NCBI GenBank assembly: GCA_951406725.2
Contig: OX597817.1
Location: 42,532,001-42,596,000 of the forward strand
DNA: 64,000 nt
From: Octopus vulgaris
Lineage: Eukaryota
Direction of reading: 5' to 3'
The notes beneath the pieces are model-generated. The model saw only the letters and a program-made list of their open reading frames with translations, did not search any database and was not told the DNA's origin. Position numbers and translations under genes: made by a program. How positions within the stretch are numbered: the first letter of the stretch is position 1; the number at the start of each line of letters is the position of its first letter. Of this stretch, positions 1 through 35,979 are shown piece by piece.

Positions 1-190
1 AATAATAATATCGAAAATACCTTAGGAATGAGAACCCGAGTTTGAAATTCCCCAAGACACCTGATGAAGGCTGGAGGGTGTATCAGCCAAAATGTTGTGT
101 TAACAACAAACAAGATGAGGACAAATATCCGTCAAATGTAAATAATGTAAATAATGTACATAATTCCTCATCTTTTAAATATAGAACTGT
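1..190 (+). mobile_element. Body of a hammerhead-bearing short retroelement, cut by the window start at its (AAT)n linker
   Basis: Closely matches the reverse complement of 9575-9735; starts in AAT repeats and ends in (AATGTAAAT)n. Confidence 0.8.
56..101 (+). ncRNA. Type I minimal hammerhead ribozyme, degenerate (GAAA to AAAA)
   Basis: gacac-CTGATGA-a-ggctg(gagggtgtat)cagcc-aAAA-tg-TT-gtgtt; stems I and II pair; the changes fit CpG decay of ccgaaacgtt. Confidence 0.75.
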
Positions 191-3451: not shown

Positions 3452-3862
3452 TTATTTAAGATGGAAAATATTTACAAAAATATCGAGATCACGAGAAAAC
3501 AAACTTTATTCATGGCAGTCAGGAGTGGCTCCAGACTAAATATGAATTCATAAGACCAATAGTATTATGTAAGTAAAACTAGTAGTGTTATGTTAGTAAT
3601 ACTAGTAGTGTTATGTTAGTTGGGTTGCACAAGTAAAAAGCATTTGAATAACCAGAATATCTTCAGGTGATGGTGGTTATATATAGAACTAAGGATGTTA
3701 ATTGGTTGACTAATGGTAGACTGTCTTTGTCTGCTGGTTACAGGAAGACTAACAGACTAATTGGTACACCGATTACTGGAACATGTGCACAGATTTCTGG
3801 GATTTTTTCAGGAATTGTACTGGCTCCTGAGGTTTAGTTTGGTTTATCATTTTGTTTATCAT

Positions 3863-4245
3863 AGGCACAGGAGTGGCTGTGTGGTACGTAGCTTTCTTAC
3901 ATGGTTCTGGGTTCAGTCCCACTGTGTGGCACATTGGGCAAGTGTCTTCTACTATAGCCTCGGGCCAACCAAAGCTTTGTGAGTGGATTTGGTAGACGGA
4001 AACTGAAAGAAGCTCGTCATATATGTGTGTGTGTATGTTTGTGTGTCTGCGTTTGTCCCCCCAACATCACTTGACAACCGATGTTGGTGTATTTACATCC
4101 CAGTAACTTAGCACTTCGGAAAAAGAGACAGAATAAGTACTAGGCTTACAAAGAATAAGTCCTGGGGTCGATTTACTTGATCGACTAAAGGCGGCGCTCC
4201 AGCATGACCACAGTCAAATGACTAAAACGAGCAAAAGAGTAAAAG
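3863..4245 (+). mobile_element. tRNA-derived SINE family B (CORE-like central ccttgggcaagtg motif)
   Basis: A box tggctgtgtgg, B box gggttcagtccc, internal TA/TG microsatellite, tail ctccagcatg.ccacagtcaaatgact.aaac.ag.aaaagagtaaaag; many copies in window. Confidence 0.9.
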
Positions 4246-4453
4246 TGTAACCTTTTATGTTTCAGTTGGTGGTGCTGTGACCATGCTGCTCCAGCATAGC
4301 CACAGTCAAATGACTGAAAGAAATAAAAGAGTAAAAGAGTATAGGATATTCAAATTAAGACAGGGAGCTTCTGGCCTTCTGGACTTCTTTTCTAGGCCAG
4401 GTTTTCTTTCCTATTCCTTCTTCCCTTTGTTTATATTGGATGCTCTTGTTTTT

Positions 4454-6190: not shown

Positions 6191-6251
6191 GCAGTAGCAG
6201 CTGCATTATCATTTTAACATCAATTTTTCTATACTGGTATGGATCAGAGAA

Positions 6252-6668
6252 AAGCGGCGAGCTGGCAGAAACGTTAGCATGCCGGGCGATATGCTTAGCG
6301 GTATTTCGTCTGCGGTTATGTTGTGAGTTCTAATTCCGCTTATGTCAACTTTGCCTTTCATCCTTTCGGGGTCGATTAAATAGGTACCAGTTACGCACTG
6401 GGTTCGATGTAATCGACTTAATCCGTTTGTCTGTCCTTGTTTGTATCCTCTGTTCTTGGCCCCTTGTGGGTAGTGAAGAAATAGGTATTTCATCTGCCGT
6501 TACATTGTGAGTTCAAATTCCGCCAAGGTTGACTTTGCTTTTTGTCCTTTCAGAGTCAATAAATTAAGTACCAGTTACACACTGGGGTCGATGTAATAGA
6601 CTCAATCCCTTTGTCTGTCCTTGTTTGTCCACTCTATGTTTAGCCCCTTGTGAGTAGTAAAGAAATAG
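6252..6668 (+). mobile_element. SINE family A, partial tandem dimer, with target site duplication
   Basis: tRNA-like A/B boxes (agctggcag, gagttc.aattcc) and gcctttcatcctttcggggtcgat core (resembles the Meta-SINE domain, from recall); flanked by ggtatggatcagagaa direct repeats. Confidence 0.9.
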
Positions 6669-6989
6669 GTATGGATCAGAGAAGTGTTTGCTGGAACAAA
6701 GTTTTCTACAGTCAGATGCCCATCCTGCCACTAACCCAACTTCTTTCCGGGTAGGTTAGTAATCTCCCAGCTTATCAAACATTAAACAGCTTGGACATGT
6801 TTACCTGGAGGACTTAAAATAAGTGACACTGTGCAGTCAGGCCTTTTGTTTATAAAGATCATGCAACATGTGAAGACATGTCAAGAAGGCTGGAGATGTA
6901 TTTCCAGTAATCCGCAAGCAAAAACTTTAGTGAAACTATTGTTTATAATCAATGAGTGAACATACATGTAGATGAAGGAAAAACAAAGT

Positions 6990-9574: not shown

Positions 9575-9782
9575 ATTACTTTATTTACATTATTTACATT
9601 ATTTACATTTGACAAATATTTGTCCTCATCTTGCTTATTGTTAACATAACATTTCAGCTGATATACCCTCCAGCCTTCATCAGGTGTCTTGGGGAAATTT
9701 CGAACCTGGGTTCTCATTTCTAAGGTATTTTTCGATGTTGTTGTTATTATTATTATTATGATTGTTATTATTATTATTATGA

Positions 9783-9838
<56 letters not shown>

Positions 9839-10005
9839 ATTATTATTGTTCAGGTTACTGTTTGGAATCGAACTTGGAATCTTGGGGTTAGTAGCCTGCG
9901 CTCTTATCCACTATGCCATATGCCCGTGGGCATAGTAGCATAGTAGTTTAGAGCGCTGGCTACTAACCCCAAGATTCCGAGTTTGATTCTAATCAGTGAC
10001 ATGAA
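9575..10005 (-). mobile_element. Composite element: tRNA-like head, (AAT)n, hammerhead-bearing body, plus an inverted copy of the head
   Basis: Head 9925-9849 with A box tggcatagtgg and B box aagttcgattcc; inverted head 9928-10005; body homologous to 1-190. Confidence 0.75.
9643..9688 (-). ncRNA. Type I minimal hammerhead ribozyme (core intact, stems slightly decayed)
   Basis: Minus strand: gacac-CTGATGA-a-ggctg(gagggtatat)cagct-GAAA-tg-TT-atgtt. Confidence 0.78.
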
Positions 10006-10190
10006 GAAGAAGAAGAAGAAGAAGAAGAAGAAGAAGAAGAAGAAGAAGGAGGAGGAGGAGGAGGAAGAAGAAGAAGAAGAAGAAGAAGAAGAAGAAGAAG
10101 AAGAAGAAGAAGAAGAAGAAGAAGAAGAAGAAGAAGAAGAAGAAGAAGAAGAAGAAGAAGAAGAAGAAGGAGGAGGAGAAGAAGAAGAGA
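10003..10190. repeat. (GAA/GAG)n microsatellite
   Basis: Direct reading. Confidence 0.95.
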
Positions 10191-11084
10191 TATTCAGCAA
10201 TAGTACTTTGGAGTAAAGTACTGTTGCTGAATATCTCTTGTTGTGAGATTTACAAATAGTAATTTTCTAATACATAGAATTAGTTTAATATTCATTCCTG
10301 TAATTAATTATTTACTTATAAGGTGGTTTCTATAAAGAATGCTCTGGGTATTTACTTATGGAATACTGGGGCGATAAACCATGCTATCTTTATATTAATT
10401 ATAAGCTAAGAATCAAAAGAAACAAATCAGAAAAATAAGTTGTGCACAGATACATACACATATTTAATTATGTGCACACATGCAAATATACACAAATATT
10501 TGTACTTTATTATGGGTATTTTATAATCAACTCCTCTAGACTTAAATAACTAGAAAGTTTATATTTTTCTATAAGGACGTTAATAACTTATAAGAGATAA
10601 GAGGTTAATAGGTAAAGGTATCAAAATAAGAAAACACAATAATAAGAAATTATAGAGAATAGTAAGAAAATATATATAACTTATTATATATAATACTAGG
10701 GGGTAAGTTCACATCATATATGACACTAAAAATTAATTTCCTCTATCCAGGTTCAAGTGCAGCACCTATAAACGCTAATTTCAAAAATATTGAAATGTAC
10801 AGGTGACCCTATATATGCATGGTACCCTTAGGTCAAATCTATTATTAACCAGGTTGTCTTGTTCCTATACTAAAAAATTTCATAACTTTCTATAGAACAC
10901 AGCTCACACCCGTATCGACTATCTCTGGAAGACTGTACAGATAATACTGCACTGACTTGGTGCTTCAACTTAAGTATCTAATTCAACTTAATCTTAATTA
11001 TTTCTTTTATATATATATATCAGCGGTGGTGCCCCAGCATGGCCGCGGCCTTCGGGTTAAAACATTTTTAAGGATTTAAGGATA

Positions 11085-26464: not shown

Positions 26465-27136
26465 GGTGTTTTTTACGTGCCACCTGCACAGGTGCCAGAC
26501 AGAGCTGGCGAATGGCCACGAACGGATGGTGCTTTTACGTGTCACCAGCACGGGGCCAGGCAATGCTGGCAACGGACACGAACGGATGGTGCTTTTACGT
26601 GCCACCGACACGGGGCCAGACAGAGCTGACAAACGGCCACGAACGGACGGTGCTTTTACGTGTCACCGGCACGGGGGCCAGCCGAGGCTGGCAACGGACG
26701 CGAACGGATGGTGCTTTTACGTGCCACCGACACGGTTGCCAGACAGAGCTGGCAAACGCCACGAGCGGACGGTGCTTTTACGTGTCACCGGCACGGGTGC
26801 CAGCCGAGGCTGGCAATGGACACGAACGGATGGTGCTTTTATGTGCCACCGACACGGGGCCAGACAGAGCTGGCAAACGGCCACGAACGGATGGTGCTTT
26901 TACGTGCCACTGACACGGGGCCAGACAGAGCTGGCAAACGGCCACGAACGGACGGTGCTTTTACGTGTCACCGGCACGGGGCCAGGCGAGGCTGGCAACG
27001 AACACGAATGGATGGTGCTTTTACGTGCCACCGACATGGGGCCATGCAGAGCTGGCAAACAGCCACGAGCGAATGGTGCTTTTACGTATCACCGGCACGG
27101 GTGCCAGACGAGGCTGACAGCGGACACGAACGGATG
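26465..27136 (-). repeat. 11 tandem units of about 61 bp (mostly alternating A/B types) in the RTE 3' UTR
   Basis: ggtgcttttacgtg recurs every 60-63 bp on the + strand. Confidence 0.95.
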
Positions 27137-27184
27137 GGTCACTTAACCCCTGCTTTCTGATATATGATTTGATTTTGATTGTTC

Positions 27185-34848: not shown

Positions 34849-35247
34849 TCATCATCATCATCATCATCATCGTTTAACGTCCGCTTTCCATGCTAGCATG
34901 GGTTGGACGGTTCAACTGGGGTCTGGGGAGCCCGAAGGCTGCACCAGGCCAGTCAGATCTGGCAGTGTTTCTACAGCTGGATGCCCTTCCTAACGCCAAC
35001 CACTCCGAGAGTGTAGTGGGTGATTTTATGTGCCACCGACACAGGTGCCAGACGAGGCTGGCGAACGGCACGCTCGGATGGTGTTTTTATGTGCCACCGA
35101 CACAGGTGCCAGACGAGGCTGGCAGACGGCCACGCTCGGATGGTGTTTTTATGTGCCACCGACACAGGTGCCAGACGAGGCTGGCAGACGGCCATGCTCG
35201 GATGGTGTTTTTATGTGCCACCGACACAGGTGCCAGACGAGGCTGGC
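34849..35247 (-). mobile_element. RTE 3' end with 4 UTR repeat units and a long TSD
   Basis: (CAT)n tail; four tttatgtgccaccgacacaggtgccagacgaggctggc units; flanking duplication tgataagcaagtaaatgtaagtgtacatata. Confidence 0.92.
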
Positions 35248-35979
35248 ACACTCACACTGATAAGCAAGTAAATGTAAGTGTACATATATATATATATATA
35301 TATATATGCATGTATGTGTTTACATACAGATGCACACCATACAAACATAACCATTAAGTTATGTTTTATGTCTTGTGACTCTATGTATAAATACACACGT
35401 ACACACACACATGCACACACACATATACACATATACACACACACATACATACACACACACGCAAACACACACACTCACACACACATGCACACACATACAC
35501 ACGCACACACACACATGCACGCACACACGCACACATACTACATATGTCAGGATCAGCTATGTATGTTACTGTGTCCCTTTGTGGAAATGACAAAAAGCTT
35601 TAGTTATATATGTAAGCATTTATGCAACACCTGATTGACATATGTATGCTACCTGTAATATTAGCATTCAAAGAGAGAGAGGAGGGGAGGGGAGAGAGAG
35701 ATACCTAATTATCTCTGTGACTCAGTATATTTGGAAATACATTATAATCATGTGATACAGCTAAGGCATGCAATGATATGTGTGTGTGTGTTCATACAAA
35801 TAGACCATAGAAGGAGAAACACATACATTTATGTCAATAAACGTGCACAAAAGAATTCATCTATACTCACTTATATTTATGTGTGTGTACGTGTATGTAT
35901 GTATTACTGTGTGCATGTGTGTGCATTTGTATGTGTCTACATACACATACATATATATATATATACGTGTGTGTGTGTG

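What the first reader, a model, noticed from the sequence alone, without database searches (positions are those of the whole stretch)
9575..10005. Candidate self-cleaving, Penelope-mobilised SINE: tRNA head, (AAT)n, hammerhead body, inverted 5' head
Seen: on the minus strand a 77 nt tRNA-like head (A box tggcatagtgg, B box gttcgattcc) leads through (AAT)n into a body of about 160 nt with a hammerhead (9688-9643) and an (AATGTAAAT)n end. A second copy of the head lies back-to-back on the + strand (gccc-gt-gggc centre at 9926-9927). The copy at 1-190 also begins in AAT repeats. The element lacks the RTE-type tail, and I see no TSD. Established: most SINEs borrow LINE 3' tails, whereas hammerheads and inverted 5' segments are Penelope hallmarks; Schistosoma SMalpha is a loose precedent for a Pol III repeat with a hammerhead. 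Inference: a Pol III-transcribed, ribozyme-processed non-autonomous element using Penelope RT/GIY-YIG machinery. This is the best candidate for an undescribed system in the window.
Basis: partly seen in the sequence, partly recalled or inferred. Interest (0 to 1): 0.85.

Follow-up and report, generated by a model that had tools for sequence, protein, structure and literature searches.

The report
Penelope retroelement with a tRNA-derived head
This repeat is not a separate SINE but the end of a protein-coding Penelope-like retrotransposon that carries a tRNA-derived segment, which likely works as an RNA polymerase III promoter and would explain why most of its tens of thousands of copies are short and begin at that segment.

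Summary
The anatomy is real: a tRNA-like head (9925-9850, minus), (AAT)n, a minimal hammerhead (9688-9643), a 9-nt repeat end, and an inverted second head. Head and body travel together genome-wide (26 of 29 head-found loci; 12 of 13 head-bearing random loci). But this is the pseudo-LTR of an autonomous RT+GIY-YIG Penelope-like element. The head follows the ORF stop in 27 of 30 loci, the "body" is the in-frame ORF start, and short copies show no diagnostic difference from ORF-linked ones. About 44,000 loci are estimated. The hammerhead, inverted copies and optional tail are known Penelope traits, and this copy's hammerhead carries three changes in its helices. The unusual part is the tRNA-Arg-like head. 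5' ends pile up at it (28 of 42 units within -12..+8, none at -40..-13). The 2.6-kb unit has no conserved T4 run, unlike 65 control PLE stretches (3.9/kb). Best reading: a captured Pol III promoter drives the element, and internal reverse-transcription priming, plus possibly trans-mobilisation, yields SINE-like short copies. Pol III use and cleavage are untested. New variant of a known kind.

The parts
9850..9925 (-). tRNA-derived head (closest to tRNA-Arg among 30 sampled genomic tRNA loci); in full elements it lies in the spacer between the ORF stop and the next ORF start
9908..9918 (-). A box-like motif TGGCATAGTGG
   Evidence: sequence; box consensus recalled
9864..9873 (-). B box-like motif GTTCGATTCC
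   Evidence: sequence; box consensus recalled
9919..9934 (.). Intrinsic palindrome at the head's 5' end; junction of the head-to-head inverted pair
9928..10003 (+). Inverted second head (84% identical), the PLE-type inverted 5' partner
10003..10188 (+). (GAA)n tract in the place of the inverted unit's (AAT)n; likely derived from it (L113 has an AAT-to-AAG tract)
   Evidence: inference
9744..9847 (-). (AAT)n spacer of variable length between head and ORF start
9577..9717 (-). Start of the PLE ORF (ATG at 9717, 47 open codons), homologous in frame to the N terminus of relative P0003
9643..9688 (-). Minimal type I hammerhead (CUGAUGA, extra A, stem II, GAAA, palindromic helix III); predicted cut between 9648 and 9647; three helix changes in this copy
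9576..9609 (-). 9-nt in-frame repeat (Asn-Val-Asn codons); tail-less 3' end of this insertion
1..190 (+). Second insertion of the same family: (AAT)n, body and the ~30-nt optional tail; an inverted head+body lies just upstream of the window

Best explanation
[quoted passage not shown] Shown: the repeat unit is ORF (RT + GIY-YIG) - 30 nt - tRNA head - (AAT)n - ORF start with hammerhead - tail, and most copies are short and start at the head. Inferred: RNA starts about 8-10 nt upstream of the tRNA-like +1. The PLE protein primes reverse transcription internally, about 130-170 nt into the ORF start, as shown for the Anolis element. Priming at the first such site copies only head-(AAT)n-body and gives a SINE-sized product; priming at the downstream repeat gives ORF-containing, 5'-truncated copies. 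Short copies keep promoter and priming site, so they could be re-copied in trans. The cDNA end can fold back on the GCCC/GGGC palindrome, which would give the head-to-head pair seen here. The hammerhead is the family's inherited dimer-type ribozyme and is probably dead in this copy.
For: Head follows the ORF 3' end in 27 of 30 loci. RT: Pfam RVT_1, E 2.4e-10. C-terminal GIY-YIG-type motifs align with 17 relatives. Full-length and tandem junction copies exist (L101, L112, L118, L168, L169, L178, L181). Body frame is homologous to P0003 residues 15-140 at 43-47%. Two 3'-end clusters about 30 nt apart, 76 and 53 of 170, match the optional PLE tail (PMC11167929). Opposite-strand pieces occur in 11 of 19 random loci and in 38 of 69 head-starting units. 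5' ends at -12..+8 in 10 of 17 random and 18 of 25 body-found units, none at -40..-13, 4 reaching into the ORF. No T4 run shared by 25% or more of copies along the 2.6-kb unit, 0.30/kb overall, against 3.9/kb in 65 control PLE stretches and 1.95/kb in 27 A-rich non-PLE ORFs of this genome. A tRNA profile hits 8 of 8 own spacers and 1 of 32 control PLE 3' regions. Hammerhead stems covary across families: 88% of cells paired, 0 of 500 shuffles as high.
Against: No RNA 5' end, Pol III occupancy or cleavage was observed. The T4 deficit is modest on its own: a dinucleotide shuffle expects only 1.13/kb, G4 runs are equally depleted, 4 of 65 control stretches also have no T4, and one natural ORF copy (L189) has three private T4 runs. 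The pile-up coincides with a hairpin (-8.5 kcal/mol), and head-to-head junctions inside the palindrome cannot be placed exactly. The one PLE promoter I read about is a TATA-less, LINE-like internal promoter (PMC2377424). The head has lost the cloverleaf. Sampled body copies are about 7% diverged at non-CpG sites, and most ORF copies scored carry stops or frameshifts, so the family looks old.
Confidence: 0.62

Rival explanations
1. Ordinary Pol II-transcribed PLE carrying a passive, anciently inserted tRNA-SINE fragment. Short copies are plain 5' truncations that stop at the hairpin at the head's start.
For: All structural traits are standard PLE traits (PMC8557442). A hairpin overlaps the hotspot. 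38 of 69 head-starting units have an inverted partner, as fold-back would give. The T4 deficit is not decisive against a dinucleotide null. The D. virilis promoter is LINE-like.
Against: Most ends lie at -8..+3, past the hairpin loop, not at its 3' foot (+9/+10) where a stalled RT should stop. The upstream edge is sharp, with 0 of 42 units at -40..-13. Many solo copies without an inverted partner end there too. Spacer and ORF are both free of shared T4 runs, unlike controls.
Confidence: 0.25
2. One reading: an independent tRNA-headed SINE family that is transcribed by Pol III, processed by its ribozyme and mobilised in trans by the PLE.
For: Only 3 of 19 random loci carry ORF sequence. Summed contig depth over the body is several hundred times that over the ORF 5' part in the two largest runs laid. 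Short copies have promoter boxes, no T4 and the priming region.
Against: The whole unit is part of the autonomous element. No column separates short from ORF-linked copies by a fixed allele, and the two common polymorphisms occur in both classes (54 vs 62 heads, 30 vs 43 bodies before bias filtering). Copies retain sequence on both sides of the predicted cut.
Confidence: 0.1
3. Retrozyme-like element replicating through circular RNA made by two hammerhead cuts.
For: Animal retrozymes are proposed to derive from PLE pLTRs (10.64898/2026.07.22.740005). 5' starts are scarce just before the predicted cut (6 in body 60-92) and common after it (31 in 93-118), and a 3-nt deletion at the cut triplet occurs in about 26 of 176 copies.
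Against: No head-to-tail arrays were seen in the sampled loci. Direct/tandem partners are 5 of 69. Copy ends are set by the head and the tail, not the cut site. The hammerhead is fully intact in only 11 of 141 copies.
Confidence: 0.03

Closest known systems
EN+ Penelope-like elements, Penelope/Poseidon type (e.g. Anolis PAc; PMC11167929, PMC8557442)
   Same: Single RT + C-terminal GIY-YIG ORF; partial-tandem pLTR; inverted 5' copies; ORF starting inside the pLTR at the hammerhead; two 3' ends about 30 nt apart; minimal hammerhead.
   Different: A tRNA-derived segment with A/B boxes sits in the pLTR just upstream of the ORF start, 5' ends pile up there, and the unit lacks conserved T4 runs. None of this was seen in the passages read, and no such head was found in the spacers of control PLEs.
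TRIMp3 elements: Cassandra, Helenus, Ajax (PMC10886601)
   Same: Small-RNA-derived Pol III promoter embedded in the terminal repeat of a retroelement; proposed origin by SINE insertion.
   Different: Those are non-autonomous LTR elements with PBS/PPT, and the paper argues that autonomous partners must use Pol II. Here the tRNA segment is in a protein-coding PLE.
tRNA-derived SINEs (SINE2); octopus tRNA-Arg SINE families OR1/OR2 (recalled, not read)
   Same: tRNA-Arg-like head with A/B boxes, short high-copy units beginning at the head, microsatellite after the head.
   Different: No LINE-derived tail; the body is PLE coding sequence; the same unit is an integral part of the autonomous element; frequent inverted partners. 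Whether OR1/OR2 share this head could not be checked.
Metazoan non-LTR retrozymes (PMC7229834; 10.64898/2026.07.22.740005) and Schistosoma SMalpha (recalled)
   Same: Type I hammerhead in a short repeat related to PLE pLTRs.
   Different: Those form head-to-tail tandems cut to unit length. These copies are dispersed or inverted, and their ends are not at the cut site.

Membership tests
EN+ Penelope-like element | Reverse transcriptase ORF | tested here: met
   Pfam RVT_1 E 2.4e-10 on L079; DKG motif in L189 and Y[VI]DD in relatives
EN+ Penelope-like element | C-terminal GIY-YIG endonuclease with CCHH residues | tested here: met
   VYSIPCSCG..YKGET..R..EH..H motifs conserved in alignment. Pfam GIY-YIG was not hit by the five own-family ORF stretches scanned, only weakly by P0003 (E 0.23); it is precomputed for 3 of 120 listed relatives.
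EN+ Penelope-like element | Partial-tandem pLTR upstream of the ORF | tested here: met
   Most of 30 ORF-5' loci carry a variably truncated same-strand body/tail directly upstream; several hold ORF end, head, body, tail and ORF start in tandem
EN+ Penelope-like element | Inverted 5'-truncated partner copies | tested here: met
   11 of 19 random loci; 38 of 69 head-starting units
EN+ Penelope-like element | Optional 30-40 nt tail | tested here: met
   3' ends at body 140-155 (76 of 170) and 182-186 (53 of 170)
EN+ Penelope-like element | Minimal hammerhead in the pLTR | tested here: met
   Core, extra nucleotide, G10.1-C11.1 and palindromic 15.2-16.2 as in PMC4209133; cross-family covariation. 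Rfam gives no match.
Penelope/Poseidon clade specifically | Placement in an RT tree with named clade references | not tested
   No named reference sequences were at hand; domain order is compatible
SINE2 (tRNA-derived SINE) | tRNA-derived head with A and B boxes | tested here: met
   Best local match to tRNA-Arg(TCT), z 9.6 against shuffles, among 30 tRNA loci; tRNA profile hits 8 of 8 spacers
SINE2 (tRNA-derived SINE) | Copies begin at the head | tested here: met
   28 of 42 head-containing units in random and body-found sets start at -12..+8
SINE2 (tRNA-derived SINE) | Separate non-coding family distinct from its autonomous partner | tested here: not met
   Unit is embedded in the autonomous element; no significant fixed differences; body is ORF
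SINE2 (tRNA-derived SINE) | LINE-type tail and target-site duplication | tested here: inconclusive
   No poly(A) or LINE tail. 6 of 24 roughly solo copies share 7 nt or more between flanks, three of them 9-11 nt; mean 5.3 vs 4.4 +/- 0.2 shuffled. None is evident in the window copy.
SINE2 (tRNA-derived SINE) | Transcription by RNA polymerase III | not testable with these tools
   Only indirect signs; available runs are contigs
Non-LTR retrozyme | Head-to-tail tandem units each with an intact hammerhead | tested here: not met
   5 of 69 units have a direct partner; 11 of 141 hammerheads fully intact
Non-LTR retrozyme | Circular RNA intermediates | not testable with these tools
   No raw RNA reads available
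TRIMp3 | Two LTRs with PBS and PPT, no coding capacity | tested here: not met
   The repeats flank an RT-EN ORF and behave as pLTRs

The most novel reading that the evidence does not exclude
An autonomous, protein-coding Penelope-like retrotransposon that is transcribed end to end (about 2.8 kb, no conserved T4 terminator) by RNA polymerase III from a captured tRNA-Arg promoter. Through internal priming it generates its own SINE-like progeny, tens of thousands strong, so that LINE-like master and SINE are one element.
Probability: 0.27. Interest if true: 0.82.

Novelty: new variant of a known kind. Interest (0 to 1): 0.6.

Why it matters
How PLEs are transcribed and why they need a partial tandem is still open. 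A tRNA promoter in the pLTR gives a defined, testable start site. If the whole ORF is read by Pol III, it contradicts the assumption that autonomous retroelements need Pol II (stated for LTR partners in PMC10886601) and raises the question of how an uncapped, hammerhead-bearing RNA is translated. It would also show a route to SINE-like families that needs no separate partner, and it warns that some 'unclassified SINEs' in such genomes may be PLE pLTRs.

Tried and rejected
Rfam over the window and over two element copies: no tRNA or hammerhead match, only low-complexity or hairpin hits. ARAGORN: 0 genes. Intron idea (GTAAAT..TATAG joining a downstream AUG in frame): dropped, because the unspliced frame is homologous to P0003 throughout and no such joint is among the 15 joints shown of 25. 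RNase P-type cleavage at +1 as the source of 5' ends: rejected, since many copies extend to -1..-8. Expression: no RNA holder listed; the runs are contigs and cannot show starts or cleavage. Same-genome control PLE families: a search with a distant relative returned largely the same family's places and gave no loci, so this control is missing; non-PLE ORFs were used instead. A strict A/B-box pattern failed on its own positive control and was replaced by a tRNA profile. One search used a wrong reference; its table is void and one search replaces it. One search translated the wrong frame. Earlier scan findings: none in 3 look-ups.

Full report
Observation. On the minus strand: a head at 9925-9850 with A-box-like 9918-9908 and B-box-like 9873-9864, (AAT)n at 9847-9744, a body with a hammerhead at 9688-9643, and a 9-nt repeat ending near 9576. 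A second head (84% identical) runs outward on the plus strand from 9928. A second body lies at 7-163. The window is in a 2.8-Gb assembly of 227 contigs. Its repeats resemble those of an octopod; that resemblance is recalled and was not tested.

Head and body are one unit. Among 29 other loci found with the head, 26 have a same-strand body downstream; among 29 found with the body, 20 have a same-strand head upstream, 8 have none by BLAST and 1 has only an inverted head. Several headless cases have another element inserted in the (AAT)n tract. In 120 evenly spaced 10-kb stretches there are 19 insertion loci: 13 with head sequence, 12 of those with body, 3 with ORF sequence and 11 with pieces on both strands. 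That extrapolates to about 44,000 loci (Poisson 95% range 27,000-69,000). Sampled bodies differ from the commonest letters by 6.9% at non-CpG and 17% at CpG sites, so the burst is old.

The unit is the pseudo-LTR of an autonomous PLE. L004 showed an inverted head+body, then an ORF fragment with GIY-YIG-type motifs, then head, (AAT)n and body. Searching with that ORF end gave 2,763 candidates; in 27 of the 30 loci fetched the head follows about 30 nt after the stop (the 30 include the query locus and four similar C31 loci). The ORF has RVT_1 at E 2.4e-10 and 2,989 relatives among 7,999 scored proteins. It aligns with 17 of them over RT and a C-terminal endonuclease with conserved Cys/His residues. 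Pfam GIY-YIG itself was not hit by own-family stretches. Full-length copies read body-tail-ORF-head-(AAT)n-body-tail, and upstream repeats are variably truncated. The body is the ORF start: the window copy is open for 47 codons from ATG 9717. That piece alone matches P0003 weakly (E 0.007), but full junction copies match P0003 residues 15-140 at 43-47% (5 of 5 tested). 3' ends fall in two clusters about 30 nt apart, 76 and 53 of 170. This fits the Anolis element, whose ORF starts at the hammerhead and whose RT starts internally at two sites bounding the optional tail (PMC11167929, main text read). Partial tandems, inverted partners and tails are general PLE traits (PMC8557442, passages; PMC8969392, passages).

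Hammerhead. The motif matches the minimal dimer-type PLE hammerhead (PMC4209133, results and discussion read). An alignment of 4 own copies and 12 motifs from metagenome PLE loci, picked by a pattern that required stem II pairing, has 88% of cells paired and 49 two-sided changes, with 0 of 500 shuffles as high. The selection inflates stem II; stem I was not selected for and is 80% paired. Within the family the motif decays: core intact in 58 and fully intact in 11 of 141 copies. The window copy has changes in stem II, helix III and stem I. Rfam gives no hammerhead match. Two weak hints point to activity at the cut site: 5' starts are 6 in body positions 60-92 against 31 in 93-118, many of them internal deletions, and a 3-nt deletion at the triplet occurs in about 26 of 176 copies on both N7 backgrounds. 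In Anolis, cleavage needed protein and was not needed for insertion in vitro.

What is unusual. The head scores best against tRNA-Arg among 30 tRNA loci of this genome, which cover only some isotypes, and is no longer a tRNA gene. A profile from those tRNAs hits 8 of 8 own spacers and 1 of 32 control PLE 3' regions, that one about 700 nt out and beyond its hammerhead. 5' ends pile up at the head: 10 of 17 units in the random set and 18 of 25 in the body-found set start at -12..+8, none at -40..-13, and 2 in each set reach the ORF. Most lie at -8..+3, beyond the loop of the intrinsic hairpin, which fits a defined RNA start better than a stall, although head-to-head junctions are ambiguous within the palindrome. 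Across 90 loci no T4 run is shared by a quarter of copies anywhere in the 2.6-kb unit; the rate is 0.30/kb against 1.13/kb in dinucleotide shuffles, and G4 is similarly low. Control PLE stretches (65 of the 80 loci; short matches and evident duplicates dropped) have 3.9/kb, 2.9/kb at similar T content, and 4 of 65 have none. Twenty-seven A-rich non-PLE ORFs of this genome (of 37) have 1.95/kb, while open-frame PLE segments including flanks have 0.83/kb. This is suggestive, not proof.

Is there a separate SINE? Short and ORF-linked copies share the commonest letter at every column except one head position (p 0.08), and the two frequent polymorphisms occur in both classes. So no independent lineage is visible at this sample size. 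Of 69 units starting at the head, 38 have an inverted partner, 26 appear solo and 5 have a direct partner, by a crude classification. Of 24 solo copies, 6 share 7 nt or more between flanks, slightly above shuffles, so a minority may have target duplications. The element is held by runs under five organism labels and was laid on four of them; these are contigs and say nothing on starts or cleavage.

Mechanism. Shown: unit structure, coding origin of the body, the two 3' ends, the 5' hotspot, inverted partners. Inferred: Pol III initiation just upstream of the head, internal priming at the first or second repeat giving short or long copies, possible re-mobilisation of short copies, and fold-back at the palindrome giving the window's head-to-head pair. 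The main rival is a Pol II element with a passive tRNA relic and a hairpin hotspot; the D. virilis promoter is LINE-like (PMC2377424, passages).

Prior description. Ten literature searches listed no paper whose title, abstract start or read passages describe a tRNA-headed PLE. The nearest ideas are TRIMp3 (PMC10886601, passages) and PLE-derived retrozymes (10.64898/2026.07.22.740005, first fifth read, supplements not seen; PMC7229834, passages). An octopus repeat annotation (PMC13282606, passages and supplement search) lists PLE and SINE totals with no mention of hammerheads or pLTRs. PMC6685494 (passages) mentions short non-autonomous Penelope elements without such a head. Repbase, Dfam and the 1994 octopus SINE paper (recalled) could not be checked, so the family may already be deposited under another label.

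Verdict. Real, high-copy and Penelope-driven, but the pLTR of an autonomous element rather than a new SINE system. The captured tRNA head with its 5'-end hotspot is a new variant worth testing. Interest 0.6.

Noticed in passing
window 10185-10240: Near-perfect hairpin (stem of about 26 bp, 3-nt loop; -38.8 kcal/mol with RNA parameters for 10181-10245) directly after the (GAA)n tract.
   Followed up: partly
L005, L020, L022 and L011, L014, L021, L118, upstream of the body: At least two other repeat families sit inside the element's (AAT)n tract and separate head from body. A LINE-like ORF lies downstream in L080; its resemblance to TAA-targeting R4/Dong elements is recalled and untested.
   Followed up: no
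element body positions 90-92 (window 9650-9648 equivalent): A 3-nt in-frame deletion at the hammerhead cleavage triplet in about 26 of 176 copies, on both N7 allele backgrounds; subfamily or recurrent event is unresolved.
   Followed up: partly
L154, L157, L158, L163, L165, L178, L179, L180: Internally deleted PLE copies: pLTR, a short ORF 5' piece, then a jump to body or tail; possible non-autonomous derivatives.
   Followed up: no
L072, L076, L083, L086 (G000 C31): Four loci share the element and at least 1.5 kb of flank at 93-97% identity, so they look like segmental duplicates on one small contig.
   Followed up: no
random loci such as L222, L244, L277, L293, L313: Another abundant short repeat with a tRNA-like start, unrelated to this head, surfaced by accident.
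   Followed up: no
window 26471-27137 and 35019-35248: Tandem arrays of related 61- and 62-nt units.
   Followed up: no
window 6250-6672 and 3859-4249: Members of two other high-copy repeat families with many copies across the window.
   Followed up: no
L345:4780-4845: tRNA-like segment about 700 nt downstream of a control PLE ORF, beyond its hammerhead; probably an independent SINE.
   Followed up: no
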